64,000 nucleotides of DNA from Raja brachyura. Lineage: Eukaryota. The translations under genes and the position numbers were made by a program. The notes under the pieces were generated by a model, which was not told the DNA's origin, ran no database searches, and saw only the letters and a list, made by a program, of their open reading frames with translations. This document shows positions 670 to 51,396 of this stretch, piece after piece. The DNA lies in the NCBI GenBank assembly GCA_963514005.1, contig OY740790.1, positions 27,962,001 through 28,026,000 on the forward strand, written 5' to 3'. The number at the start of each line of letters is the position of its first letter. The first letter of the stretch is position 1.

Positions 670-3470
670 TCCCCTCTCCCTCTCCCTCTCCCTCTCCCCC
701 TCCCTCCCTTAAAAAAAATCTTTAAAAATTGAAGGGGGGAGGGGGAGAGGGAGAGGATTTTTGGAATGTTGGGGGGATAGGAGGGTTTCTTTTTTTTTAC
801 ATTTAGGGAGAGGAGGGGAGAGGGGTTATGGAGGGTGGGAGGGAATGACTGAGGTTGGGGAGGGTTGCCGTCACTCGCTTCACAACGGGGATCTCTGGCA
901 TCACAACGGGAACCCGTCAACCGCGCCCACACAGTTGGGGGCTATGGGTGAGTGGTGGAATATTACGTTGGGGGTCCCGCCCTCCCATGTTACAGGGACC
1001 CACTTAGTCTAGTATCTATCTATCTATGTATTACCAAAACCCCTCATCTTCTTTGGCCATCATCGAACACTTAATCGTGGTCCTGGCAGCAAATGATTGA
1101 ACAGGAAGGGGAGGGGCCAGGGTAAGTGGAATTGGAATTGGAAGTGCCGGAGGAGGCAGGAGAAGTACAATTGGAATTTTTTTAAGTCCATTGCTGGGGG
1201 AGCCAGGTAAGTGGTGGAATCTTACGTTGGGGAATGGGTTGCATTGGGGGACCAGGCCTCCCATCGGGGCTATGGATGAGTGGTGGAATATTACGTTGGG
1301 GGAATGGGGCCCAACGTGTTCCACTTGGTCTAGTATATATTACTAAAACTCTTGCCTTGTTTCTATCTATATGTCTACTACGTATGTGTGATCCTGGAAC
1401 TACGTCAAAACGGTACACAATAGCACTAACATTTTTGCACCACCTTACTCACCATTGTCACAATTCACAGGTTATTGTCATTTAAAAGTAAAAAAAAAAC
1501 ACTTTGAGAAGAATAACTGTGACTGCTGTGAGACTTTTCTGGCAGTTTCCAGCTATGATGTCACAATGGCATCTCACCGTCCACCAATCACAACGGGATC
1601 TAATTTACATACACTGCCGTGAACATTCCGCCGGCCGACAATGACATCATAATGGCATCGCAGCTGCCAATCTACAGCGTTGGGATAAGCTCCAGCCAGT
1701 GCAATGAGTGGGGGAGGGGAGGAGAAGAAATGTTATTTAAACATTGTGTTTAGTGGGGGAGTGTGAAAGGGGAGAAGTGAGGGAGGGAGTGACTAAGGGT
1801 AGGGTCATCTGAGGTTAGGGTCTTCAAGGGGGGGAAAGGAGGGAATGAGATTTAAAATAAATCCGTTTTAATCAGATTCTTGGGGAGAGCTTTCCTTTAT
1901 ACAAACAAATTCCAGATTTTTTCTTGTACGGGGGGGGGGGGGGGGTGGGATGGGGGAGATGTCCATGTGGAGGTTTTCATTTGGGGGGGGGGTGGGAGTG
2001 GAATATGGGAGAGGTTTCATATCCAGAACTTTCCTTGGGGGGGGGGGGGGGGGGATGGGATGTGAATCCAGTCTGAGAACGATTCAGCAGTGTGGCAGTT
2101 AGAGCTATGACATCACAATGGGATCAGCATAAATCCACTTTAATCAGATCCTTGGGGAGAGGTTTTGTTTATTCAAACAAATTCCAGAATGTTCCTTGTG
2201 TGGGGGGGGGGGGGGGTGGAGGAAACGTGGTTTTCCATTGTGGGGGTGGGGGGGATGGTATAGGGGAGAGGTTTCATTTTCGGAACTTTCCTTGTGGGGG
2301 AGGATGAGGGGTGGGGGCCTTCATCATGTGGGGGGGGGGGGGGGGTAATAAGGAAGCAGTTTAATTTCCAGAACTTTCCTTGTGGGGTGGGGGGTTTCCA
2401 CATGGGAAGGAATCCGGAATGTTCCTTGTGTGGGGGGGATGGAGGAAACGTGGTTTTCCATTGTAGGGTGGGGTGGGGATGGAATAGGTGAGAGGTTTCA
2501 TTTCCAGGGGAGAGGTTTCATTTCCAGAACTTTCCTTGTGGGTGGGGGGGGGGGATGATTGGTGGGGGTTTTCATTATGGGGGGGGGGAAATAAGGAAGC
2601 AGTTTAATTTTCAGAACTTTCCTTGTCGGGTGGGGGGTTTCTACATGGGAAGGATTTATTGGCGTTGCACAAAAAAAACAGAACTTTTCTCCGCCTCCGC
2701 CGCCGCTCCCCCCCCCCCACCTGGGAAGGATTGATTGGCTCCAGGGAGTCAATTACTAAAAGTCAATTACTAGAAGTAGAATTGGAATTGGAAGTGCTGT
2801 GGGAGGCAGGGGAAGTGCAATTGCATTCTTTAAAGTCCTTGAAGCAAAAGGAGGGGGAGGCAATGCTGGGGGATATGCCCTTGCACAGTTGGGGGCTATG
2901 GCTTAGTGCTGGAATATTGCATTGGGGGAACGGGTGAGTGGTGTAATATTGCGTTGGGGGACAAGGCCTCCCATGGAGGTTATGGGTAAGTGGTTGAATA
3001 TTGCGTTGGGGGAACAGGTTGTGTTGGGGTCCAGGCCTCCTCTCATGGGGGCTATGGGTGAGTGGTGCAATATTGCGTTGGGGGACAAGACCTCCTGTGT
3101 GACAGGGACCCAACGGTATGTATGTATTTATGTTCTTGAAATAGAGCCAAAATGGTACACGATAGCACAAAAAAAAGGTTGAGCTCCTTAGTCACCATTC
3201 GCCTGCGGTGTGCAGTGTCAAGTTTTGTTTAATTATACAAAGTAATTCCCTTTTTAAAAGTTAATTAACTTTCTACCTTGAACGGCAGTGCGCTCCCGCT
3301 TACCGGAACCGTCAGCCGTGACTGCACAGTTTGGGGAGGGTTGCCGGGCTCGGTATCCACACGTGCGCAGTTGATGAATTCGAAATAACTGAACGGGTTG
3401 TACTTGATTGCGTCACAATGGGGATCTCTGGCATCACAACGGGGACCCAAGGGGTCCACAGGTCGTCTAG
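670..3470 (+). mobile_element. Tandem array of non-autonomous Helitron-like units
   Basis: Units end in CTAG|T at 1012, 1333 and 3470 after a gggaccc/gggtcc-type hairpin (partly deleted in the first two). New units begin (TC)TAT..ATTAC(T/C)AAAAC. Shared internal repeats gggggctatgggtgagtggtggaatatt. Confidence 0.7.
1850..2650 (+). repeat. G-rich minisatellite within the Helitron unit
   Basis: Recurring ggagaggtttcat..ccagaactttccttgtgggggggg units with long G-runs. Confidence 0.85.
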
Positions 3471-4969
3471 TACTATTTAATATTTAAGATAGACACAAAA
3501 TGCTGGAGTAAGTCAGATGGTCAGGCAGCATCCCTGGAGAAAATGAATGTGATGATTCGGGTCGGGAGCCTTCTTTGGCCTATTTTAATGCCTTTGCAGC
3601 ACATATTTATTCAGAAAAGGTATATAAAATGTAATACAGCATTGAAATCTATTCTGGCACTGACTTGTTTTAATACATAATGATGTATTCAGGCATTTGC
3701 TGCAGTATTGATGTCTATTTCAAATCACAAAAATTTACATCACACAAGATGGCTATTGCTCCATTATCACAAGATGGATATTGGTCCATTATGACCATAT
3801 TGATTGAAGAAGAGCTATCCAACCTAATCCAAATCTCCTCCTCCATCCTGATCTATTACATTCTGTGCTCTTGATGTGGTTCAGCCTGGCACTGAGGCTA
3901 CCAAAGATGTACATCCTTTCAGAGATATTCTTCTCCAAATTAGTGTGAAATGTCTATAATCACCCAATCAGGTTCATGTATATTTCAGTACAAGTATTTA
4001 TTTTCTAAAGCTCGGACAGTGTACGGCCAATCTTCTTAGGAACCTCCTTGGAAGATAAAAAGGCCAAAACAGTATGCAATACCCCATGGCAGCTATAACC
4101 AAGTCTGTTTGAATCAAGATATCTTGATTTGTCACAGAGTCCAGTACAGGCATCCCCTTACTTATATAGGGTTACATTCTGAACCATTACGTAAATCAAA
4201 TTTTACTTAAGTTGGAATCACCATCCCCATCCCCATCCCATGCCCAAAGTAACTCGCGGAGAATATTCATTGTCTCAGCAGATTCTGGCTGTGTCCAGGA
4301 CACATTCTGCATGCAACCTTCTGGGTAAGCACCTGTATCCCATGAAAACTTGTGATTATACAGTGTTGTGGAAATCACAAACTTGCACTAGGGACTGGGT
4401 ACAGAATTGTTTATGTAAGTGCGAATTTACATAAGTCTCTTATTGCATAATTCATGGAGTGTCTGTATTCCGTAAAGTATTTGGTGTACCTGTATGCTAA
4501 CTTGCTGTGATTCTTTTATGAAGACATCACAATTTCTCTAAATTATGAAACCACAATGACTACTTCCACACCAGAGTGAAAGTATCATACAGGCACAGAT
4601 ACTGGAAATATTACATTTGTCCCTTTCTTACCAGTGAATTGTACAAACCCTACTTATTTTCACCTTTGCTTCCGCCCAGAATATTTCAAGCAGCTTGTGA
4701 TGTCCCGTACTCTGGTATTATTTCGGCAATGTTTTTCCTCACTTGGGCTATATTGAATTTCTATTTCTTATTTTGTAGTCATATTACATGACTAATACTC
4801 TGGTCTTACACTCTCTTGATCTTCTGCTGTAATTTAAGTAGGAGATCAATGGAAACTCAAGAGAACTGGTGTAAATGCCATTTTGGATGTTCTTTTGGGG
4901 ACGTGGACCTTTAATCTAGGTTGTGTATGATATGGGAACATCCCAAAGACATTCACCTAGACTGTTTAT

Positions 4970-5770
4970 ATCCATAAGACTTGCTGTAGGAGCAGAAATA
5001 GGCAGTCTACTTTGCCATTCAATCATGGCTGATCTAATTTTCCCTCTCAACCCTATTATCCTGCCTTCTCCACGTAACCATATAACCATATAACCATAGA
5101 ACAATTACAGCACGGAAACAGGCCTTCTCGGCCCTTCCAGTTCGTGCCAACCATTTATTTTCCCCTAGTCCCATCTACCTGCACTCAGACCATACCCCTC
5201 CATTCCCTTCCCGTCCATATATCTATCCACTTTACTTTTAAATGTTAAAATCGATCCTGCCTCCACCACTTCTGCTGGAAGATCATTCCACACAGCCACC
5301 ACTCTCTGAGTAAAGAAGATCCCCCTCATGTTACCCCTAAACTTCTGTCCCTTAATTCTCATGTCATGCCCTCTTGTTTGAATCTTCCCAACCCTCAATG
5401 GGAAAAGCTTATCCACGTCAACTCTGTCTATCCCTTTCATCATTTTAAAGACCGCAATCAAGTCCCCCCTTAACCTTCTGCGCTCCAAAGAATAAAGACC
5501 TAACTTGTTCAACTTTTCTCTGTAACCTTTGACACCCTTACTAATCAAGAACCTATTAATTTCCACCTTAAAAACAAGCAATGTCTTGGCCTCCACCGTT
5601 GTCTATAGCAATGAATTCCACAGATTTTCTACCTTCTGAAGAAATTTCTCCTCATTTCCAATGTGCCCTCTGATTCTCGACTCTCCCATTACTGGAAACA
5701 TCCTTTACAAATGCATTCTATTCCAAGCCTTTCGTTACCCAGTAAGTTTCAGTGTGATCCCCCATTATCC
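4970..5770 (-). mobile_element. Nested CR1 3' fragments (younger copy ~5077-5525 inside an older one)
   Basis: ORF 5165-5596 reads LGLYSLERRRLRGDLI...FFTQRVV..WN. (AACCATAT)n tail; gtaacc occurs at both junctions. Confidence 0.8.
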
Positions 5771-6479
5771 ATGTGGATCATGCTCTCCGTCATTCCATGA
5801 ATGCACTTTTAGTTGGGAAAACCTTCATAATTTTGAGCCAAAAAGCTTAGTTTTGTCTTTGGCACTCTATGCTTGATTGTCTTAATCTTTTTGGTATCCT
5901 AAGATCTTGTGCGGAAGTTCCATGAACATTACATTAAAGAATTGGATTAACCTTACAGACTGCACAGAGAGCAGCGCTAACTCCACGGCTCAGGGCTGGT
6001 GTTCAGTCAGTGCAGCGAGGGCTGTAGGTTAACCCAGTGAGACAAGCAGAGTTGAGCTGGATTTAGCGCTGCTTCTCCGCGCTGGCTGTAAGCCTGGGCC
6101 GTTGTTTCCGTACGTCCAGGTATGGCTGGTAGGTTCACAGGCAGAGTTGAGCTGGATTTAGCGCTGCTTCTCTGTGCTGGCTGTGGGCCTGGGGGCGCCG
6201 CTACCGTCTGACTTCCGACATCTCTGGTCGTCCCCGGACGGGGGGCACTCGGGAGGGGACAGGGATGTCCAGTGGCGGTTCAGCAGCGATTGTGGCACTG
6301 CAGACCTGGGATCGATCCTATTTGCCTATGTCCATGCCGCAGTACGGCTGCTGAGAGTTTTTATCGCTTGCGACCTTTGAGAAATTCCATGATTCCTTGC
6401 GTTTCACGGAATACCAAACTCACTTATTGGATTGTCTGATGTTCACTAAATTTTAAGTCTCCTCTCTTTTATTGTTTAG

Positions 6480-7178: not shown

Positions 7179-8471
7179 ACATCCTGGTTAATAGGTAATA
7201 GAGCCAAGAAGTTCATAAATGGATGGGACAAACTCTCTTTGAAATAAACGGTAATTTTTAACGTACTTGGATTTACTCTTCATCTGCACATTTAGACTTT
7301 CCTTCACTACTGTCACATTAGCAACCATCTGCAAATTCAATAATCTATTTCACCATAAGCATAGCTTCTAATCTTCCTAATTTCAAAGACACATTGCACC
7401 ATTGCTCTTAACTTTCCTTGTCTCTGCCCTGCCTCAATTCATCTGGCGCTGAGACTCCCGTAGTAGGTCATAGAACACACAACAAAGAAATGGTCCCTAG
7501 ATATAGAGTCATACAGTGGGGAAAACAAGCCCTTCCGCCCAACATGTCTACTACTGACCAACATGTCCCATCTACACTAGCCCCACCTGCCTGTGGTGTA
7601 GAGCTTGACCGATAGAGACAGAATTTTGATACGCGTCTATGATAGCTTGTTGACAGAATTCCATTTTGAATGCATAGGATTTGAGTCATTCTATTGACAG
7701 TCTAAGAGCTCGGTACATTAAATTTCTAATGAAAACTTTAAAGTTTTTCCCTCCAAGAGAAGGAACTCTATAAGTTTCAAGTGCATGTCTTTACTCGTCA
7801 CAAATCTTGATTCTGTATTTTAATATAATTGATCAAAAAAAAGTATATACTTTATATAGATGGGAAGAAGATAGATCTGAAGAAGGAGAGCTAAAGAAGG
7901 GTCCCGACTCAAAATGTCACCTAGGCATGTTTTCCAGGGATGCTGCCTGACCTGCTGAGTTCAGCTCTTTTTTCTTTTTTTTCTGGTTTGTTTAATTTCC
8001 TACATAGATAATAGTTTTTTTTTATTTGCTCTTGTGTCCCTCCTTTGATATCATTACCTGTTCTATTTGCTGCTTAACTAGGGAATGAAGAGGTATTCAT
8101 TACTCTTTCCTATAGATAGAGTGTTTTTTATAGTTTATCTAGATAATGGGCAGAAGAAAGATGTAGTTTGAATCACAGGGGACTGGTCGTCATCTTTTGC
8201 CCAGTTATATTGAATCTAATTTATTGCTATCACCTACAAAATTAACAGAGCAATAAATGTATAGAATTGACAGCACTTATCAGTTATTGTGAAAGTGAAT
8301 CCCCAGAACCAGGTGTAACGATCGATCTGAAACTTTAACTCTGATTCCATCTCAAGAGATGTTGGCTGAGCTGTTGTGCACTTTCCTCAAATTTAATGTC
8401 AGTAAAACATACTGAATGGCCTCAGTAAAAAAAAGGAATTTGACCTATTTAGTTATTACCTGTCAGTAAGT

Positions 8472-9078
8472 CTGATACAGATAGATACAGATAGATTTTA
8501 TTTGTCACATGTGCCAATTGGCACAGTGAAATGAAGTCACCATACAGCCAAAAATAAAGAACACAACATAGAGTAGACAGAAATTCAACATAAAACATCC
8601 CCTCACAGCAGGAACAAAATTTCCCACCGTGAGGGAAGGCACCAAAGTCAGTCTCTTCCCGATGTTCCCCAATGTTCACCCATGATCGGGGCCTCACCCA
8701 GCCCTCCGCTGTCGCCGCTCCGGGCGGCCTGATGTTCAGGCCCGCTCCCCGGGGTGATGCAAGTCCGACATCGGGGCTGGGGGACGTCCTCAGCGGCCTG
8801 GACCCTGAGTCGGCCCGCTCCTACCGGAGTCTGCAGCTCCCAAAGTCCGCGGGCATGCCGGGTGGAGATTCAACGCTGGAGGCCCTCGGCAAAGGGCCCC
8901 AGGACTCCAGGGAGAGGGAGTTCAGCGCCGCCCGCGTTGGGAGCTCTCCCAAACCAGAGCTCCACGATGTTGGAGCAGCAGCCCAACGCTCCGGAGCTCC
9001 AACGGTGACCCAGGTAGGCATCGCCAGCTCCTCGGTGACTCCAGCACCGCCGCCGCTGTTGCAGCTCTGGTCCGGTTC
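8472..9078 (-). mobile_element. GC-rich non-autonomous retroelement with (TATCTG)-like tail, probably 5'-truncated
   Basis: Its 3' region (gccttccctcacggtgggaa...ggatgttttatgtt) is shared with 58223-59080. Microsatellite tail follows an AATAAA-like signal. Confidence 0.6.
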
Positions 9079-9129
9079 CAAGTCATCTTAACAGCATAAA
9101 ATAATGATCCTCTGATGTAATCAGTGAAA

Positions 9130-9500
9130 CTTGGAGCGCAGGAGGTTGAGGAATATTTTTACAGAGGTATATAAAATCATGAGGGGAATAAATTTTTTCC
9201 CAGGACAAGGACATTAAAAACCAGAAAACATAGGTTTTAGTTGAGGGGCAAGGTTTAATAGGAACCTGAGGGGCAATGTTTACAGTCAGAGAATGATGGG
9301 TATATGGAATGAGCTGACAGAGGAGATAGTCGAGGCAGATGCTATTTAAAAGATGCTTAGACAGGCACATGGATAGGAAAGGTTTAGAGGGCTATAGGCC
9401 AAATGCAGGCAAATGGGCTATCTTAGATGGAGCACCTCGGTCGGCATGGATGAGTGGGGCCGAAGGACTTGTTTCCGCGCTTATGACTCCATTACTCTAT
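9130..9500 (+). mobile_element. CR1 3' fragment
   Basis: Degenerate end of CR1 ORF2 (FKRCLDRHMDRKGLEGY) plus 3' UTR. Confidence 0.7.
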
Positions 9501-9841
9501 AACTCCACAGGAGAGAAAACAGTTAATTTACAGGAATGTGTTCCAACATAGCCGCTGTGTCAATAATGTTGAGAGCTACAAATGTGGTCAGAAATACAGC
9601 AGACCGATGCACTCCACCACTCGTATTCAGCTGCTACCTCCCTCTGTAGCACACACTGTTATTCCTTACTTTTTGGACGAGAGACCTGTGGTATGGAAGT
9701 TATTAGCAAATATCAAAAGCAGCTTTGCTAACTTCTGAGGGAAATCTTTTCAAAGGTTATGAAAAAGTTACACTGCAATCAGATTATTTTCTTGCATTGT
9801 ACTTTTAGCGAGGGAGTGTTGCGTAAACAGTGGTACGCACC

Positions 9842-11835
9842 TCAAATCAATCAAAATCAAATACGTTTATTTGTCATTGCACATCAACTGTACAACAAAA
9901 TTTCATGTGCATCCCCTTCAATGGTAAACAATGAAAAAAAAGGATAAAAAGATTAAAAAAAGAACAAAACACAATAACACAAACAACCATTTACTCTCAC
10001 ATTTACATTTACTACAAGATCAATGCATAAAATAAGTAATAGATAATAAAAAATGCACATTATATTGCACATTCTAGCAGACAAATTTTTATTTGCATCC
10101 CGAATTGTGTAGTGTTGCCCGTAGTGTTATCTGTTTGAGTTAAGTTCTCTAATGGCACGTGGGTAGAAACTGTTAGTCTGCAAGTGCGGGCCTTCAAAGA
10201 CCCGTATCGCCTCCCATAGGGCAGCAGAGTGAAAAGGTGGTTGGCAGGGTGGAATGAGTCCTGCGTGATGTTTGTCGCCCGGCATAAACATTGGGCCTTG
10301 TAAATGTCTTCCAGGGAGGGTAGTTGAGTGTTTATGATGCTCTGTGCTGTTTTAATAACCCTCTGTAGTGCCTTCCTTCCAGCCACAGTGCAGCTAGCAA
10401 GCCACACCAGGATGCCATAGGAGAGGATGCTTTCCACGGCGCACCGGTAGAAGGACAGCAGCAGCTGCTGTGAGACGTTTGCTCTCCGCAGAGTCCTCAG
10501 GAAATATAGCCGCTGCTGTGACTTATTTACGAGACTGATGGTGTTCACTGTCCATGTAAGGTCCTGGGAGATGTATGTGCCCAGGAACTTAAAGTCAGTG
10601 ACTCTCTCCACCATGTCTCCTTTGATGTAAAGAGGAGCAGGTTCTTCTCTCCTCCTCCTGAAGTCAATAACCAGTTCTTTTGTTTTGATTGAGTTGAGTG
10701 CCAGGTTATTGTTAGTGCACCAGACAGTCAGTTTTTGGACTTCATCTCTGTAGGCAGACTCGTCGTTGTTATTTCTCAGCCCCACCACAGTTGTGTCATC
10801 TGCAAACTTAATGATCCGGTTTGTGCTGTGTGTCGGTGTGCAGTCATGGGTGTATATTGTGTAGAGAATAGGACTCAGCACACAGCCTTGTGGCCCCCCT
10901 GTGCTGAGTGTCAGGACTGGGGAGTGATTGGACTCCATCCTGACAGTCTGTGGCCGATCTGTTAAGAAGTCCTTGATCCATCTGCATGTATTGGCATTTA
11001 CACCCAGGTCAAACAGTTTGTCCACCATTCTGCTGGGGATGATGGTATTGAATGCAGAACTAAAATCTACAAACAACATCCTCACATATGAGCTGGGGCG
11101 CTCCAGGTGAGTCAGTGCAGAATGTAGAGCCATGTTGATGGCATCTTCTGTTGACCTGTTGGCTCTGTATGCAAACTGATGTTGATCCAGGGTGGGTGGG
11201 AGTGAGGATTTAATGTGGGCCAGGACCAGTCTCTCAAAGCACTTCATCACAGTTGAAGTGAGAGCAACAGGTCTGTAGTCGTTCAAGCTGGTGATAGATG
11301 ATTTTTTCGGAACAGGCACAATGGTGGCAGTCTTGAAGCATTTAGGAACAGTGCATGTTGACAGAGAGAGGTTAAAGATGTCGCTGAATACCTCCGCCAG
11401 CTGGTCTGCACAATCCCGCAGTACTCTCCCTGGGATGCCATCTGGGCCAGCAGCTTTCCTGGGGTTGACGTTGCGGAGTACTCTCCTGACATCCTCTGTG
11501 CTCACAGTGAATGCCAGGTCGTCAGTGCTGGACGCGGCTGCAGGCACAGGCTCCGCCTTACTCAGCTCAAAACGGGCGAAAAAGTGGTTAAGCTCCTCAG
11601 CCAGCAAGTTACTACTACTGCTGCTGGTGGTTAACCCCCTGTTGCCCTTGTAGTTGGTAAGTTGCTGGATACCTTGCCAAACACGCCGGGGGTCCCTCTC
11701 ATTAAGGTGTCCCTCTAGTCTTCTTCCATAGGCTGCCTTTGGCTCTTTGATGGCTCTCTTCAGTTTGGATCTGGCAGTGCTGTACAGTTCATCATTGCCA
11801 GATCCAAAGGCTGAGTTGCGTTCCCTCAGCAGCCT
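9842..11835 (-). mobile_element. Rex1/Babar-type non-LTR retrotransposon, 5'-truncated, long open RT frame
   Basis: ORF 10060-11607 has [47 protein letters not shown] and FKFLG. (ATTTG)n-like tail at ~9842-9861. Confidence 0.88.
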
Positions 11836-12299: not shown

Positions 12300-12588
12300 T
12301 GACTTTACACTTTAGAGAGATACAGTGTGGAAACAGACCCGTCATTCAAGCACATCCGTGCTGTCCAGTGCTAGGGTACACTAGCACTATCCTACACCCT
12401 AGAGACAATTTACAATTTTTACAGAAGCCAATTAACCTACAAACCTCTATGTCTTTGGAGTGTGGGAGGAAACCGGAGCACACAGAGAAAACACTCGCGG
12501 TCACAGGCAGAACGTTCAAACTCCATACAGACAGTACCCATGGTCAAGATTGAATCTGTGTCTCTGGCACCATCAGGCAGCAACCCTG
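12300..12588 (-). mobile_element. V-SINE (HE1-like)
   Basis: tgtgggaggaaaccggagcac V-domain and tail. Confidence 0.75.
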
Positions 12589-12949
12589 TCATAGAGTCAT
12601 GGAGTGATGCAGTGTGGAAACAGGCCTTCGACCCAGCTTGCCCACACCGGCCAACATGTCCCAACTACACTAGTCCCACCTGCCTGTGCTTGGTCCATAT
12701 CCCTCTGAACCTGTCCTATCCATGTACCTGTATAAATGTTTCTTAAATGATGGGATAGTCCCAGCCTCTACTATCTCCTCTGGCAACTTGTTCAATACAC
12801 CCAATATCCTTAGTGTTATCCCTCAGATTCCTATTAAACATATCCCCTTCTCCGTGAACCTGTCCTCTGGTCCTCGATTCCGCTTCTCTGGGCAAGCGAT
12901 TCTGTGCAACTACCCGATGTATTCTTCTCATGATTTTATACAGCACTAT

Positions 12950-14828
12950 GTAGCATTGTTCCAAAATCTACCATCAGCAGCGCTACAGATCTGCCACTGC
13001 CTGTTTGTGTGATTCCGGAGGCTTTGGGGGGGGACATGATTAAAATGCAGGTTTGCATTGGTTGTCGGAGAGGGATTTCTTCGGGCTGCTAGCGCTTCCG
13101 TTCCTGTTTTAAAAAACAAAAATTTGTTGGACGATTGCATCGCTGGATTAAAGTTAAACGCTGCTTCTAACGCCTTCAACATCACGGATCGCAATATCAG
13201 GACAAAACAAAAGGTATGTTGTTTACTTAACATATTATCTTGCTTTTTGGTGTGGCTTCATTTTAATCTTATGATGCAAAAAATGTTATTTAGGCCCACA
13301 TATGAATTGGCCGTGTCTTGCTGCCGATAAGGGCTTAAATCGTGGCAGTGGCCACATTCCAATAGATCAGATTCCAGAAACATCCACTCTCAACATAATC
13401 AAATTCATTATTCTTTTGCACACAAGGTGTACATAAGAACATCTAAATCATCTATACTTTGTGTTAGTGTCTATCCATGATCAATATTTTCATACTAAAT
13501 ATCCACAGTACAATTTTAGTCAGATGTATTGTGTAAAAAATAATTATTTTGATTATCTTGAGAGTGGATGTTTCTGGATTAATTTATGGGAATTAAACAT
13601 TAAAATACTTCCATTTGGCATATAAATTCATGACAAAGTGAGTTTTAAAAATCATGTTATATTGTGCATTCTTGTGTGAATGGGATCAGTTTGTTATTTG
13701 CCATTTGGAGACAGGCTATTTAAAAAAAAATAACCTTTTCTTAAGAAATTAATAATGTTTAGATCTAGTCATTGAATTTAGATTAATTTAATTGATCAGA
13801 TGAATTTGATTTGAGGAAAGTGATGAATATGAATTTTTTGTTGGGTATTTACAATTTGTTTTAGCGTTTAACTTTATCATTTCTTCCTTTTTTTTCTAAA
13901 ACTGCAAATAATAACTTGTTTCTGTTAATGATGTTCAGTGTTTCTTTTTTCTTTACATTTTAAACAGATGTCTCCGAAGAAGAAATGCAAAATTATCAAT
14001 CCAAATGTCCAGTAAAAGATTTAGACAACATTCGCTGAGATTATTGGAATTTGGACTCCTCCAAATGTGATGATCTACAGGACATTTTTAATGGGAAAGT
14101 AGTGGGCAGAAAAACATGTCATGCGTGGTTTGAAGAGCAAAAACTTGTAGTTTACAATGCCAAAATTGAAAAGTTATGGAAAAACAAGATGTACAGAGTT
14201 GCTTATTGGTTACAATCTGGGGAGTATGAAGATGCCACTGATTATGATATACCAATGTACCGACAAACAACTGATCTTCTCCATAACGACTTGGTATTTT
14301 GCTAGAAATTGTAATTTCTTTACCTGTCTGTTACGGACTTACAGCATATAATACAATAATATTAAAGTTCTGATCTTGAGAATATCCCATTTTTGAATTC
14401 AAGGCAGTCTGTGTGTTTATTATTATTTCCGTCACTACGGTCAATTTTGTAATTAGCTACAATTAGGTAAGTAACTAATTATATGCTTTAATTTCAGGTC
14501 ATCCAAATGAGATATTTTATAATTGTTTCAGAATGCTTCAATCTTTAATAACTGAAAATGTCATTCAGTTCTCGTAATTTTTAAGAAAGTTATGGACACA
14601 CTGATCTGTTTTGTAATCAATGCCTCGATCATAGCTTTTATATTAAGACAATGGAAAAGCAATAGGGAACAAGATGCTAATTCCCCAGTATGAAAATGGC
14701 CATAACTTTTTTAATACTGAAGATATGAATGTGAATTAGGTACCAAATTGAAGTTATTTTTATGCTTTGTCTGATGGGAAAATTACAGGCTTGATTTTTA
14801 AAATCCCAACATTTTGTAACATTCCTAC
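12950..14828 (+). mobile_element. Unclassified TIR DNA transposon, copy A (internally deleted, carries a degenerate terminal exon)
   Basis: Imperfect TIRs GTAGCATTGTTCCAAAAT / ATTTTGTAACATTCCTAC; flanks actat/tctat. Both ends are homologous to copy B. Confidence 0.75.
13968..14305 (+). pseudogene. Degenerate terminal exon inside the DNA element, Tudor/Spindlin-like pattern
   Basis: Strong acceptor tttctttacattttaaacag|AT. Frame DVSEEEMQNYQSKCPVKDLDNIR*DYWNLDSSKCDDLQDIFNGKVVGRKTCHAWFEEQKLVVYNAKIEK...YRVAYW...TDLLHNDLVFC*. Confidence 0.5.
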
Positions 14829-15256
14829 TCTATAAGATCACCCCTCATCCTCCTGTGCTCCAAGGGATAGAATCCCAGTCTACTCAACCTCTCCCTATAG
14901 CTCACACCCTCGAGTCCTGGCAACATCCTTGTAAATCTTCTCAGAACCCTTTCAAGCTTGACAATATCTTTCCTATAACATGGTACCCAAAACTGAACAC
15001 AATATTATAAATGCGGTTTCATCAATGTCTTATACAACTGCCATGACCTCCCAACTTCTATACTCAATACTCTGACTATCCCGGGCCGCTCTGCCACCCC
15101 TTGGGAATTTGGGAAGTTTGGGAATTTTCCTTCAGAAATCAGGGTAAGCTGCTGGCCATTGTAAAAACTGGAATGCAAGGGTGTCACCACTGGTGGGCTG
15201 GTAAACGTTTACCTCATCAGCTTCCATTCTAAATATATATATATGGGATTTGTAAA

Positions 15257-26616: not shown

Positions 26617-26729
26617 TCTTCACGAAGTCACTCACATGACTCCGAAGTAAAATAGTAAGATTAAACAAGAACTTACAAGTTTGAAGTTTGATCTTTATTT
26701 TATGGGGAGCTGCGATGAGGGATTTTGTG
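26617..26729. repeat. DIRS internal complementary region (ICR)
   Basis: 26617-26653 is the near-perfect reverse complement of the left end (21547-21583). 26651-26729 is the near-perfect reverse complement of the right end (26863-26941). Confidence 0.92.
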
Positions 26730-27134
26730 CCCTCCGTTCCCAACCCTCTATCATAAGTTCAACTGGTATGGTCAAGTTTTAATCTTACTATCTTCGTTTT
26801 GTGATTTGTGATTCCACACCGCTGCTTTGAAGAATGCTGCGCATGCGTGTTGGCGGGGTCTTCACAAAATCCCTCATCGCAACTCCTCATAAAATAAAGA
26901 TCAAACTTCAAACTGGTAAGTTCTTGTTTAATCTTACTATTAATGCATATGTCCCTGGGAGTATCTAATCAAAATGGATGGGCTGTATCTCTAAGATTGG
27001 GATTAATGACCTCATGGGATGCTTGGAGAGGGTTTAAACTAAAATGGCAGTAATGGGCACCAATGTACTGCGTAAGATGAAAGGAATCAGATACAAAAAT
27101 TAGTGGGAGTAGCACATACCTTTCCTTTCCTATT

Positions 27135-27425: not shown

Positions 27426-28380
27426 CGGTTTTGTGACAATACCAGATCTAAAAATCAATCAGACTTGTTCCGTGACAACATTTGGTTCCACTTCACCTTG
27501 GCTACCTTTCCATTCTCATTCTATTGAAATTAGCCTTCCTCCTGTTATCAAATTTTGGCAGTAGATTGCACTTTATTCTTATTCATTACTGACCAGTTTG
27601 GGGCCAGTTTTCTCCAAATGCTAATACATCCCTCCCACGGAGTTAAGGAAGTGTTTGCAAATACATGAGGCTTTTGCCTTAATGATAGATAGCGTATAAA
27701 GTAAATGGACCATATGATGAAAATGAAGGAACAAAAACAGAACATGCAGGTAAGCACAGCAGGTCAAACATCAGTAAGAAAAGAAACAGGGCCCATGCTT
27801 TGTACAACAAAATTGAAATCCTGACGGAAATTAAGGACAGTCAAATTTTGCAAGAAAATCTGTTTAGAGATACAACAAGGCAGCGCCTCTACCAGCTGTG
27901 CAACTTTGCCACCCTGGGCATCCATTTAGCCAATTAAGTATTGCCATGGCCCTTACTAGGGGCATTTTGACTGTGTCCCTGTCAGATCAACCAATCACCT
28001 TTTTTATTCTTGGTCCATACCTCAATATCAAGAGGAACAGCAATCTTATGGCTTCCATAGATTCAGTCGTGCTCCCCCATTTGAGAAATAATACTGTTTC
28101 ATTGGGGGCAGTTCAAAGAAGGTTCACTAAGATGTTTCATTTTATGGAGGGATTATCCAATGTGGAAAGATTAACTTGGTTGGGAATCCATCAGGAATTG
28201 TAGCTGAACCTGGCGCTGATCATAGGTTCTTTTGGAGAATAGAGCTCTGGGCAGCTTGTGTTCCCTTCTCTCTCTGGTTTCAGTGTTCCTACCTTGCAAT
28301 ATCTCAACAGTATAAGCAGCCTTAAGGATGAAAATAGGGAGTTTTTTTCCTCTGGATAACTTAGAATTATATTGCATATA

Positions 28381-29410
28381 CTTGCAATGTTACAACATTT
28401 TGAGATTTAAAAAATCAAGTCTGCAATTTATCCCATCAGATAAAGCATAAAAATAAGTTTAATTTGACACCTAATTCACTTTCATATCTTCAGTATCAAA
28501 AAAGTTAGGGCCATTTTCATACTCGGAAATTAGCAACTTGCTTCCTATTGCTTTTCTATTGACTTATCACAAAAGTTGTGATCGGGACAGTCAAAAGCCC
28601 ATAACTTCCTTAAAATTTAAGAGAACTGAAAGAAATTTTTAGTTATTATAGATTGAAGTATTCTGAAACAAATATGAAACAATCTTACTTGGATGACCTG
28701 AAATGAAAGCATATAATGAGTTAGTTACCCAATTGTAGCCAATTACAAAATTCAATTACTAGATCTAAACATTTATTAATTTCTTAAGAAAAAATTAAAA
28801 AAATGTAAAGCCTAAGTGTCCAATTAACAGTCGCACAATAATTCACAATAAAACATGATTTTTATATCTAATTGTCATTAATTTATAGGCCAAATTGAAG
28901 GAATTCAGTGTTTAATGCCTGTAAATTAATGGGCATTTGAAACAGCTTGCGAGTGGGATTTTAAGGAACGCGCTGCATTGGAACATTGCGGTAGCGGTGA
29001 ATTTAAACCCCATATCAGCAGGACAAATTCTGACAGTTCATATGGGGGCTAAATCACCGTTTCGCAACATGAAATATTGATTAAAGTCCCCTAAAAAAGC
29101 AAGTTTATATGAAAAAATAAATAGCTTTCACTTACCTGTCCCCTACGTAAAATCGGTCCCCGTTGTCGGCGTTCACGGCATTGGGAGCTAATTTTAATTT
29201 TACTGCAGCAATTAAATAGTCGGACGATTTATTTTAAAAAAAGGACTTACCGGCAGTCGGAACAAATCTCCGAAAATAGATTGCACTCCGTGAAAATAAA
29301 CGGCATTTCAACCCCGCCCCCCCCACCCCCCCTTAAAGGCGCCAAAGTCGCGCACACTGCCAGCGGCAGAACTCCAGCACTGCTACAGGGAAGTTTTGTA
29401 ACATACCTTC
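28381..29410 (-). mobile_element. Unclassified TIR DNA transposon, copy B (non-autonomous, 1030 bp)
   Basis: Ends CTTGCAATGTTACAAC / TTTTGTAACATACCTTC, atata on both flanks. Reverse-complement homology to ~14400-14828 and ~12950-13700. Confidence 0.75.
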
Positions 29411-29649
29411 ATATACATTAACCTATGAGTGTAAACTGAACAGCAAAGTTAGGCTTTCCTCCCATTATCCCAACAGCCTGATCCAAGTAACAAAACAGAA
29501 CGGACTGTGGTAATGTTTTATCATCCAATCTATTGTTTGTTTAGTTTCTGCAAAGAGGAATCTCCAACTGGAAATGTACTCATGTTGGACAGTGGTGCAT
29601 TCACTGGATCTTCCATGCTCAGCTGATAATGTTTGTATTTTGTTTTCAG

Positions 29650-45312: not shown

Positions 45313-45517
45313 TAAAGAAGGAACTGCAGATGCTGGAGAATCGAGGGTACACAAAAGGCTGGAAAAACTCAGCGGGTGCAGCAGCATCTAAGGAGCAAAG
45401 GAGATAGGCGACATTTCGGGTCGAGACGAAGGGTCTCGACCCGAAACGTCACCTATCTTCTTTGCTTCTTAGATGCTGCTGCACCCACTGAGTTTCTCCA
45501 GCCTTTTGTGTACCCTC
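45313..45517. mobile_element. Fold-back mini-element made of two inverted Penelope pLTR halves
   Basis: Arms 45343-45427 and 45433-45517 are near-perfect reverse complements; ~16-bp TSD ccatttgctcat(t)gttt. Confidence 0.8.
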
Positions 45518-50346: not shown

Positions 50347-51396
50347 CTAGAAAAAGTGTGACCCATTGGGTCCCTGTCACATGGGAGGCCTGGTCCCCCA
50401 ATGCACACTGTTTCCCCAACACAATATTCAACCACTCATCCAAAGCCCCCACGGGAGGCCTGGTCCCCCAACACAACCCAATCCCCAATGCAATATTCCA
50501 CCACTCACCCATAGCCCCCAAGGAAGTCCTGGTCCCCCAACCTCTCATTTCCCCTTATTCACCCACATTAAATGAAAAAAAAATCCAAATTGCACTTGCT
50601 TGCTGACAGGACTCAGTGTGGTGACTCAGTGTGGTGAGAAAAAAGACAGGACTCAGTGTGGTGTGATTTGCAACATTGTAGCCGGTGAGAAGTTAAGTGA
50701 AAAGTAAATTGCCAGGAATCCCAGAATTGTCCTGGGATTTGCAACATTGTAGCCAGACGGGTCAGCAATTTGATTTGGAATTTTCAGTGACAAGTTTAAA
50801 TGTTTACAGTTTGAAATATGTATAACTTGTAAAATATACGATCAATCTGAATGATACACCAGACCACAGGACAATTGTGAGTAAGATGGTGCAAAAATTG
50901 TAGCGCTTTCTGTTTTGGCGTAGTTCCGGGATAACTAACACACACGCGCACGCACGCACTGGAATTAAAAAAAAAATCCAATTGCACTTCTCCTGCCTCC
51001 CCCAGTACTTCCAATTCCAATTCCGCTTCCCCTGGCCCCTCCCCCTCCTGTTCAATCACTCGCAGACAGGACCACAACTAAGTGTTTTATGATGGCAACA
51101 TTGTTGCAAATGTCGGGTGGCGGACTGTGAGATCCGTTTGTGATATCATAGCTGCAACTGCCACCACTGAAATGTTGAAGTGATTATCAAAGTGGATTTA
51201 GTAAACATAAAAATGTGATAACTTGTGCAATATAACATCAATCTGAACAAAACGTGATACAAACAACCACGGGTCAATGGTGAGTAAGGTGGTGCAAAAA
51301 TGTTCACAGTTTTGTGTACCATTTTGGCATAGTTACTTAAAATCGCACACAGACAGGCAGACATCCAACAAGATGAGACTTTTAGTGATATATAGA
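50347..51396 (-). mobile_element. Non-autonomous Helitron of the same family as 670-3470
   Basis: Minus strand begins TCTATATATCACTAAAAGTCTCATC and ends GGGACCCAATGGGTCACACTTTTTCTAG. Shares internal repeats with the first cluster. Confidence 0.72.

What the first reader, a model, noticed from the sequence alone, without database searches (positions are those of the whole stretch)
12950..14828. Unclassified DNA transposon with GTAGG-like termini, apparent 5-bp TSD and a Tudor/Spindlin-like exon
Seen: TIR consensus of about GTAGG(A/T)ATGTTACAAAA. Because copy A interrupts a CR1, the empty site can be inferred and fits a 5-bp duplication (actat/tctat); copy B has atata/atata. Inside is a spliced-looking terminal exon (13968-14305) with VGRKTCHAWF..VYNAKI..YRVAYW..DLLHNDL, resembling the Spin/Ssty Tudor-like pattern VGKRIxHxW..G.V..Y.I.Y..D...GDL. 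Inference: a remnant of an intron-containing transposon gene with a possible chromatin-reader module. The termini and TSD do not fit Tc1, classic hAT (8 bp), piggyBac/Kolobok (TTAA) or Transib (CAC).
Basis: partly seen in the sequence, partly recalled or inferred. Interest (0 to 1): 0.7.

Follow-up and report, generated by a model that had tools for sequence, protein, structure and literature searches.

The report
Dead hAT-type transposon with Spindlin-like tail
This is a broken, shortened copy of an abundant cut-and-paste jumping gene that duplicates 7 bases where it lands; intact relatives in the same genome encode an enzyme whose last domain is predicted to fold like the histone-mark reader Spindlin, so the enzyme may read chromatin, which is untested.

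Summary
The element is real, but its ends were misread. It runs 12951-14827 with TAG...CTA ends and a 7-bp target duplication (exact in 40 of 52 copies with both ends); 'GTAGG plus 5 bp' is the same boundary moved out by one base. It is a non-autonomous deletion derivative of a 4.26-kb element with one 978-aa ORF, present in near-identical intact copies. The 'exon' is the deletion junction: about 12 start codons joined out of frame to about 97 final codons, decaying neutrally. The predicted transposase fold is closest to Hermes/hAT (Z 17.1, next 10.1). Binding is untested; young insertions show no CpG-island bias. It may be Repbase's hATw group (recalled, not testable here). The scan noted this family twice before in this genome, and a similar domain in a sea urchin.

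The parts
12944..12950 (+). Left copy of the 7-bp target-site duplication (CACTATG; 2 changes from the original target CTCTATA)
   Evidence: original target in 7 of 12 intact LINE copies
12951..14827 (+). Non-autonomous 1,877-bp internal-deletion derivative (copy A) of a divergent hAT-type DNA transposon
12951..12969 (+). Left imperfect terminal inverted repeat, starting TAG (15 of 19 bases pair with the right end)
   Evidence: sequence; 16 of 19 in the intact parent
13214..13967 (+). Possible 5'-UTR intron: donor-like AAG|GTATGT at 13214, pyrimidine tract and AG directly before the ATG; splicing not shown
   Evidence: similar motif in the parent, in copy B and in many copies of this subfamily; no joint in public contigs
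13356..13593 (.). Imperfect internal inverted duplication (69%) in the 5' region of this subfamily
13968..14005 (+). Start of the transposase ORF (ATG and about 12 codons with a basic KKK stretch); this frame stops after 15 codons here and after 20 codons in 21 of 30 copies
14006..14016 (+). Deletion junction: about 2.6 kb of the parent ORF, including the whole DDE core, is missing; frameshift
   Evidence: the same joint (parent 3754 to 6350) is in contigs of runs X3 and X4
14017..14305 (+). Remnant of the last ~95 codons of the transposase, with the Spindlin-like Tudor domain at about 14099-14302; premature TGA at 14036-14038; stop at 14303-14305
   Evidence: fold
14809..14827 (-). Right terminal inverted repeat, ending CTA on the + strand
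14828..14834 (+). Right copy of the 7-bp TSD (CTCTATA)
12588..12943 (-). CR1-like LINE fragment, left flank (host of the insertion; outer limit approximate)
14835..15060 (-). CR1-like LINE fragment, right flank (outer limit approximate)
28382..29409 (-). Copy B: 1,028-bp member of a different non-autonomous subfamily (parent 5' 666 bp joined to the 3' 370 bp, no coding remnant); exact 7-bp TSD GTATATG at 29410-29416 and 28375-28381

Best explanation
The stretch is a dead, internally deleted copy of a cut-and-paste DNA transposon with TAG...CTA ends and 7-bp target duplications, whose intact relatives encode a 978-aa transposase predicted to have a hAT/Hermes-type fold and to end in a Spindlin-like Tudor domain that likely binds a methylated histone H3 tail. 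Shown: the ends, the TSD, the deletion junction, the intact 4.26-kb relatives and the conserved D429/D506/E784 and C531xxH534 residues. Predicted: the Hermes-like core and the Spindlin-repeat fold of residues 881-978. Inferred: the transposase of an autonomous sister subfamily recognised the ends, moved this copy in trans and inserted it into a CR1 with a 7-nt stagger, preferring targets that often begin with C and end with G. The Tudor-coding tail kept in this copy is a passenger, out of frame and not selected. In the intact enzyme the domain likely engages H3K4-methylated or similar nucleosomes during target capture. That last step is untested.
For: TSD exact in 10 of 19, 11 of 12 and 19 of 21 copies; outer bases duplicated in 21 of 21. 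Parent L043:2895-7156 has a single ORF of 978 aa; seven other copies are 98-99% identical; 6 of the 9 best protein matches have no stop, in open frames of 891-1023 aa. Fold: Hermes holds the top 11 Foldseek ranks (best E 6.8e-7), and VIA Z 17.1 (rmsd 3.9, 336 aligned) against 10.1 for the next entry, P element 8.0, Transib 6.7. The Atlas structure neighbours of a Hydra homologue are hAT clusters. D429 is kept in 90 of 91 rows, D506 in 89, E784 in 91, H534 in 91. Tudor: model pLDDT 94; the top 24 entries of the second look are all Spindlins, aligned to repeat 2 where numbering shows it (Spindlin1 residues 123-193; best Z 8.6, rmsd 2.3, 66 aligned); Spindlin-1/3/4 make up 11 of 14 PDB sequence hits, all weak (E 0.13-1.4); hhalign with the host's own Spindlin repeats gives E 0.0009, probability 23%, and puts W920, Y929 and Y946 on the positions of cage residues F141, W151 and Y170 (cage residues from PMC3967050). 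Those three are aromatic in 77 of 80 homologues that span the domain; D969 is kept in 78 of 81 and D/E974 in 77 of 80, in register with Spindlin D184 and D189, which bind H3R2 and the H3A1 amine. Neutral decay in the deleted subfamily: pN/pS 0.83 with 12 stop variants across 30 copies.
Against: Histone binding was not tested. In the wide search the best Z values were only 7.2 (RDM15 Tudor) and 7.1 (Spindlin-4), tied with the non-reader TraI barrel (6.9), and Z under 8 can be a common arrangement. No Foldseek hit reached E 0.001. Pfam Spin-Ssty did not detect the domain. The Spindlin E142 position is Y/F, and the match of F/Y959 to the fourth cage residue Y177 is inferred, not aligned. The 1-kb flanks of 30 young copies are no more CpG-island-like than background (1 of 30 against 35 of 400; p > 0.1). 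The conservation counts are partly circular: A1 was seeded by the domain, and A2 holds 90 of the 120 listed homologues, picked for high coverage. The protein has no Pfam hAT hit, no BED-type Cys/His pattern and RL where hAT enzymes have RW (RW motif recalled), so it is a divergent member at best. The 5' half of copy A is only about 75% identical to the young parent, so its direct parent is a sister subfamily that I did not recover.
Confidence: 0.62

Rival explanations
1. Same element and same family, but the C-terminal barrel is an SH3/Tudor-like structural or DNA-binding domain, like the barrel of TnsB, with no methyl-reading role. It would help oligomerisation or bind DNA.
For: TraI (Z 6.9) and TnsB residues 1-57 (Z 6.9) barrels score close behind the Spindlins. 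The family has no detectable hAT C-terminal dimerisation domain, so something else may serve that role. A basic KLKKK loop is conserved. There is no CpG-island bias in the flanks.
Against: The best structural and sequence matches are Spindlin repeats, and the conserved set (W920, Y929, Y946, D969, D974) lies at Spindlin's ligand-contact positions.
Confidence: 0.25
2. The Spindlin-like domain is an anti-silencing decoy. It would occupy methylated H3 at the element's own copies, or compete with host SPIN1, rather than steer insertion.
For: The closest match is Spindlin. Search listings report SPIN1 acting in silencing of young transposons (PMC11499256 and bioRxiv 10.64898/2026.08.20.746118; titles and abstract starts only). 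The lack of flank bias fits a non-targeting role.
Against: No direct evidence. The domain is fused to the catalytic enzyme, the arrangement known for targeting chromodomains of integrases (bioRxiv 10.1101/2021.11.30.470311, section 10).
Confidence: 0.1
3. One reading: an unclassified element with GTAG ends and a 5-bp TSD, carrying a spliced terminal exon of an intron-containing gene.
For: The inner 5 bp are duplicated (10 of 19); G is the commonest base before TAG in this subfamily; there is a pyrimidine tract with AG at 13966-13967.
Against: The outer bases vary and are duplicated in 21 of 21 copies. The parent ORF is uninterrupted and starts at that AG|ATG. The Tudor part is out of frame with the ATG and decays neutrally. 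The core fold is hAT-like.
Confidence: 0.01

Closest known systems
hAT superfamily, Hermes transposase (PDB 8edg, 6dwz, 4d1q, 2bw3)
   Same: Predicted RNase H-like DDE core with a large helical insertion and CxxH; best structural match (Z 17.1; E 6.8e-7); short imperfect TIRs; non-autonomous deletion derivatives.
   Different: 7-bp instead of the usual 8-bp TSD; no Pfam hAT hit and no BED-type finger; long N-terminal coiled coil; C-terminal Tudor-like barrel; about 12% identity to Hermes.
Repbase/RepeatMasker hAT-hATw group (definition recalled, not seen in any call)
   Same: Recalled as hAT elements with 7-bp TSDs. The label is used for Hydra and amphioxus repeats (PMC13465017, PMC12905397, passages), and many homologues found here are Hydra proteins. 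Repbase holds hAT entries annotated '7-bp TSD' (PMC4455052, passage).
   Different: No hATw sequence or definition could be retrieved (supplements 39, 68, 72, 93), so identity is not shown. None of the passages seen mentions a Tudor domain.
hATm (PMC6004678, passages)
   Same: 5'-TAG termini; divergent hAT branch.
   Different: hATm has TAGGGTG ends, 8-9-bp TSDs and, in hATm-6, PF05699. This family has TAGGTATG/TAGCRWTG ends, a 7-bp TSD and no PF05699 hit.
hAT7 of rust fungi; hAT5 and hAT6 (PMC12730594, passages)
   Same: hAT elements with non-8-bp TSDs; hAT7 makes 7-bp TSDs.
   Different: hAT7 is fungal and clusters with Ac/Tam3-type hATs; hAT5 and hAT6 make 5- and 6-bp TSDs. No sequence comparison with these was possible.
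Spindlin1 Spin/Ssty repeat 2 (PDB 7e9m, 5y5w, 4mzh; PF02513)
   Same: Best fold match (Z 8.0-8.6); three cage aromatics and the D184/D189 positions conserved.
   Different: Single repeat instead of three; 13-16% identity; below Pfam detection; a longer beta3-beta4 loop; the E142 position is not kept; binding not shown.
Gypsy-10_Ec32 with a C-terminal Tudor domain (PMC12477816, passage); hAT-chromodomain fusions in Ephydatia (bioRxiv 10.1101/2021.11.30.470311, section 10)
   Same: Transposon enzyme fused to a Royal-family reader.
   Different: The first is an LTR retrotransposon, described in 2025 as the first TE with a Tudor domain. The second is a species-restricted chromodomain fusion. Here a Spindlin-type module is kept across a cut-and-paste clade from sponge and Hydra to fishes.

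Membership tests
hAT superfamily | RNase H-like DDE core with helical insertion, closest to Hermes | tested here: met
   Predicted model: Hermes Z 17.1 against 10.1 next; Foldseek ranks 1-11; D429/D506/E784 kept in 89-91 of 91 rows
hAT superfamily | CxxH motif after the second Asp (feature recalled) | tested here: met
   C531 in 90 of 91, H534 in 91 of 91
hAT superfamily | Short terminal inverted repeats | tested here: met
   19-bp imperfect TIR, 16 of 19 in the parent
hAT superfamily (canonical Ac/Buster/Tip groups) | 8-bp TSD | tested here: not met
   7 bp in 40 of 52 copies; 8 bp in 0 of 19 and 0 of 12. hATs with 5-, 6- and 7-bp TSDs are accepted in the superfamily (PMC12730594), so this excludes the canonical groups only
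hAT superfamily (canonical Ac/Buster/Tip groups) | BED finger and PF05699 dimerisation domain | tested here: not met
   No hAT Pfam hit at E <= 1 in 10 proteins; only 3 scattered Cys in the first 420 residues
hAT superfamily | Phylogenetic placement among curated hAT transposases | not testable with these tools
   No Repbase or Dfam protein set is available
hATw group | 7-bp TSD (recalled definition) | tested here: inconclusive
   The TSD is 7 bp, but the definition was not found in any held paper
hATw group | Sequence similarity to hATw reference transposases | not testable with these tools
   No reference sequence in the supplements searched
hATm group | TAGGGTG termini and 8-9-bp TSD | tested here: not met
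   Only TAG(G) is shared; the TSD is 7 bp
hAT5 | 5-bp TSD | tested here: not met
   Outer bases duplicated in 21 of 21 copies
P superfamily | Core fold closest to the P transposase | tested here: not met
   P element Z 8.0, rmsd 7.9, against Hermes 17.1
Spin/Ssty (Spindlin) Tudor-like reader | Tudor-like beta barrel of the Spin/Ssty type | tested here: met
   Predicted model; the top 24 entries are Spindlins, best Z 8.6; Z 7.1 in the wide search, tied with RDM15 and TraI
Spin/Ssty (Spindlin) Tudor-like reader | Passes Pfam PF02513 | tested here: not met
   The genome search gave 6 matches, none at a transposon locus fetched here; their sequences are host-type Spindlin repeats. Not among the top 25 families for 78 domain sequences
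Spin/Ssty (Spindlin) Tudor-like reader | Four-residue aromatic cage (F141, W151, Y170, Y177) | tested here: inconclusive
   Three positions aligned by hhalign and aromatic in 77 of 80 homologues; the fourth is inferred to be F/Y959 (aromatic in 71 of 79) but was not aligned
Spin/Ssty (Spindlin) Tudor-like reader | Binds methylated histone tails | not testable with these tools
   Needs a binding assay

The most novel reading that the evidence does not exclude
A clade of animal cut-and-paste transposases, from sponges and Hydra to fishes and still recently active in this genome, carries a functional single Spindlin-type reader that binds the methylated H3 N-terminal tail. It would be a DNA transposase that reads a histone mark directly, to choose targets or to evade SPIN1-guided silencing, and a possible link to the origin of the Spin/Ssty repeat.
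Probability: 0.35. Interest if true: 0.75.

Novelty: new variant of a known kind. Interest (0 to 1): 0.48.

Why it matters
The copy in the window is ordinary junk DNA. The family matters for two reasons. First, histone-reader domains that steer insertion are known for retroviral-type integrases, and a 2025 paper calls a Gypsy element the first TE with a Tudor domain (PMC12477816, passage). My searches listed no paper whose title or abstract start describes a Tudor or Spindlin domain in a DNA transposase; I opened 2 of those 42 listed rows, and Repbase Reports and most subscription journals are not held. A reader kept across a whole transposase clade would make chromatin-guided target choice by cut-and-paste elements directly testable. 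Second, intact copies 98-99% identical to each other give a ready natural enzyme for such a test, and possibly a new gene-transfer tool with a 7-bp stagger.

Tried and rejected
5-bp TSD with GTAG ends, and a 9-bp TSD with AG ends: rejected. Terminal coding exon: rejected. Selection on the retained tail in the 1.88-kb subfamily: not seen (pN/pS 0.83; each variant codon counted once). Pfam gave nothing significant for the peptide, the transposase or nine homologues; for 78 domain sequences there were only weak Agenet (7 members, best E 0.032) and PTM/DIR17 Tudor (6 members, best E 0.0051) hits. The PDB sequence search with the full profile hit only coiled coils. Expression and splicing: no RNA holder on record was listed, and contigs of 8 runs showed no joint from the donor-like site to the ATG; this says nothing either way. 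Insertion bias: GC, CpG o/e and CpG density of 1-kb flanks of 30 young and 28 old copies did not differ from 400 random 1-kb pieces taken from 40 stretches on 8 contigs; this has low power, follows selection and is only a proxy for H3K4me3. The hATw label could not be tested: four papers asked for by recalled id were not held, and supplements held as text had no hATw sequence (tree files and figures may not have been visible). The Atlas feature search gave only unnamed clusters. No complex prediction was run, because methylated peptides cannot be modelled there.

Full report
Observation. The window holds a TIR element at the stated place. A search of the own genome (2.7 Gb) returned 7,531 first-look candidates, of which 40 were scored; the best full-length copies are about 1.85-1.91 kb and 80-87% identical. 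The flanks read as the 3' end of a CR1-like LINE on the minus strand (label recalled), and 7 of 12 intact LINE copies spanning the site carry CTCTATA once.

Ends and target duplication. With the ends set at TAG...CTA (12951-14827), a 7-bp duplication is exact in 10 of 19 copies in which both ends were found (19 of 30 loci), and no other length from 2 to 12 bp exceeds 2 of 19. In 31 copies (19 of this subfamily, 12 long ones) 21 have the inner five exact, and all 21 also duplicate both outer bases. This includes 14 of 14 where the base before TAG is not G and 6 of 6 where the base after CTA is not C. A young 1.03-kb subfamily adds 19 exact of 21. The total is 40 of 52. Targets often start with C (15 of 21) and are A/T-rich inside, which explains the apparent 'GTAG...CTAC'. 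Copy A has two changes in its left TSD copy. Copy B (28382-29409, minus strand) has an exact 7-bp TSD and belongs to the 1.03-kb subfamily with no coding remnant.

The parent. An intact copy of the peptide found a 514-aa database protein, which found long open frames in the own genome. L043:2895-7156 (G000:C8) is a 4,262-bp element with a 19-bp imperfect TIR, TSD CATATGC and one ORF of 978 aa. Seven further copies are 98-99% identical, so the family was active recently. Copy A aligns with its 5' region up to about codon 12 and again from about codon 884. The ATG frame ends after 20 codons in 21 of 30 copies, and the tail shows pN/pS 0.83 with 12 stop variants, as expected without selection. 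Copy A is 87% identical to the young parent in its 3' part and about 75% in its 5' part, so its direct parent was a sister subfamily. The AG before the ATG and a GT donor-like site at 13214 suggest a 5'-UTR intron. Contigs of eight public runs showed no such joint, which is not evidence either way.

The enzyme. Pfam has no significant hit. There are 124 homologues at E <= 1e-5, with named ones from sponge, Hydra, molluscs, echinoderms, a priapulid, a brachiopod, an annelid and teleosts. I aligned 90 of the 120 listed, chosen for high coverage. The AlphaFold model (pLDDT 84.6) matches Hermes best: Foldseek ranks 1-11, best E 6.8e-7, and VIA Z 17.1 against 10.1 for the next entry, 8.0 for P, 6.7 for Transib and 6.4 for RAG. 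D429, D506, E784 and C531xxH534 are kept in 89-91 of 91 rows. There is no BED-type finger and no PF05699 hit. It works like a hAT transposase, and it is best filed as a divergent hAT branch outside the canonical 8-bp groups. hATs with 5-, 6- and 7-bp TSDs are accepted (PMC12730594, passages), and Repbase has hAT entries annotated '7-bp TSD' (PMC4455052, passage). hATm shares TAG but has TAGGGTG ends and 8-9-bp TSDs (PMC6004678, passages). I recall hATw as the animal 7-bp group, and the label is used for Hydra and amphioxus, but no definition or sequence was retrievable.

The C-terminal domain. The peptide found 187 representatives at E <= 0.001; 77 of the 150 listed, mostly the short ones, were aligned with residues 881-978. 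The model (pLDDT 94) is a four-to-five-stranded barrel with a helix. Foldseek found nothing at E <= 0.001, but Spindlins fill most top ranks. The wide search gave RDM15 Tudor 7.2, Spindlin-4 7.1 and TraI 6.9, which are tied. The second look ranked 24 Spindlin entries first, best Z 8.6, on Spindlin1 residues 123-193, the H3K4me3-binding repeat. By sequence alone, Spindlins were 11 of 14 weak PDB hits, and hhalign with the host's six Spindlin repeats gave E 0.0009 at probability 23%. That alignment places W920, Y929 and Y946 on F141, W151 and Y170 of the cage; D969 and D974 fall in register with D184 and D189, which hold H3R2 and the H3A1 amine (PMC3967050, passages). Of 90 rows with the catalytic core, 80 span the domain and 77 of these keep all three aromatics. 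The fourth cage residue is likely F/Y959, which is an inference. The domain is nearly as conserved as the core (0.56 against 0.63).

Function test. If the domain steered insertion to H3K4me3 promoters, young copies might sit in CpG-rich DNA. They do not: 1 of 30 flanks is CpG-island-like against 35 of 400 background pieces, with p > 0.1 for GC and CpG measures. The test is weak but does not favour promoter targeting.

Literature and earlier notes. A 2025 paper calls a Gypsy element the first TE with a Tudor domain (PMC12477816, passage). A survey of chromatin-domain and TE fusions names mainly PHD and chromo fusions, including hAT-chromo in a sponge (bioRxiv 10.1101/2021.11.30.470311, passages and section 10). 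Searches listed no title or abstract start describing a Tudor-bearing DNA transposase; I opened two of those papers. Earlier scan notes, looked up after my own fold results, report the same family twice in this genome and a Spindlin-ended transposase in a sea urchin. They are not independent support.

Verdict. The window copy is a dead non-autonomous element, and its '5-bp, unclassified' status is not supported. The family is a divergent hAT-type transposon with a 7-bp TSD, possibly already catalogued. What remains of interest is the conserved Spindlin-like domain on a recently active cut-and-paste transposase. Its fold is well supported by prediction, and its function is untested.

Noticed in passing
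L003, from the ATG onward (G000:C21, about 9.679 Mb): One of 30 copies has a 114-codon frame from the ATG; L003 shows a further small deletion at the junction that would join the basic N-terminus in frame to the Tudor tail. Single copy, probably chance.
   Followed up: partly
L061-L090; window 28382-29409: A young, uniform 1,034-bp non-autonomous subfamily (97-98% identical to the intact parent's 5' end). Three full copies and one partial match were found in 400 kb of random sequence, suggesting some tens of thousands of copies genome-wide.
   Followed up: partly
L043:185-2673 and 7233-9899: The intact parent copy is flanked by two GC-rich 2.5-kb repeats, 85% identical, so it inserted into a tandem array.
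   Followed up: no
L044:7606-9901: A second, inverted and more diverged (87%) copy of the transposon's 3' half lies about 480 bp from a full-length copy.
   Followed up: no
window 13356-13593: Imperfect inverted duplication (69%) inside the 5' region of the 1.88-kb subfamily.
   Followed up: partly
window 26651-26941 and 45343-45517: Near-perfect short inverted repeats (79 bp at 96%; 85 bp at 93% with a 5-nt loop), possibly small MITEs or head-to-head SINE pairs.
   Followed up: no
window about 930-3110: G-rich tandem array with units of 32-110 bp and a related inverted copy near 50400-51100.
   Followed up: no
G000:C3:66367149-66371283 and G000:C32:32810940-32825147: Two host Spindlin genes, each with three Spin/Ssty repeats on separate exons.
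   Followed up: partly
P0218, P0248: Database gene models that join this transposase to other domains (a BTB domain in a sea spider; PF22178 in a sponge); these may be annotation artefacts or fusions.
   Followed up: no
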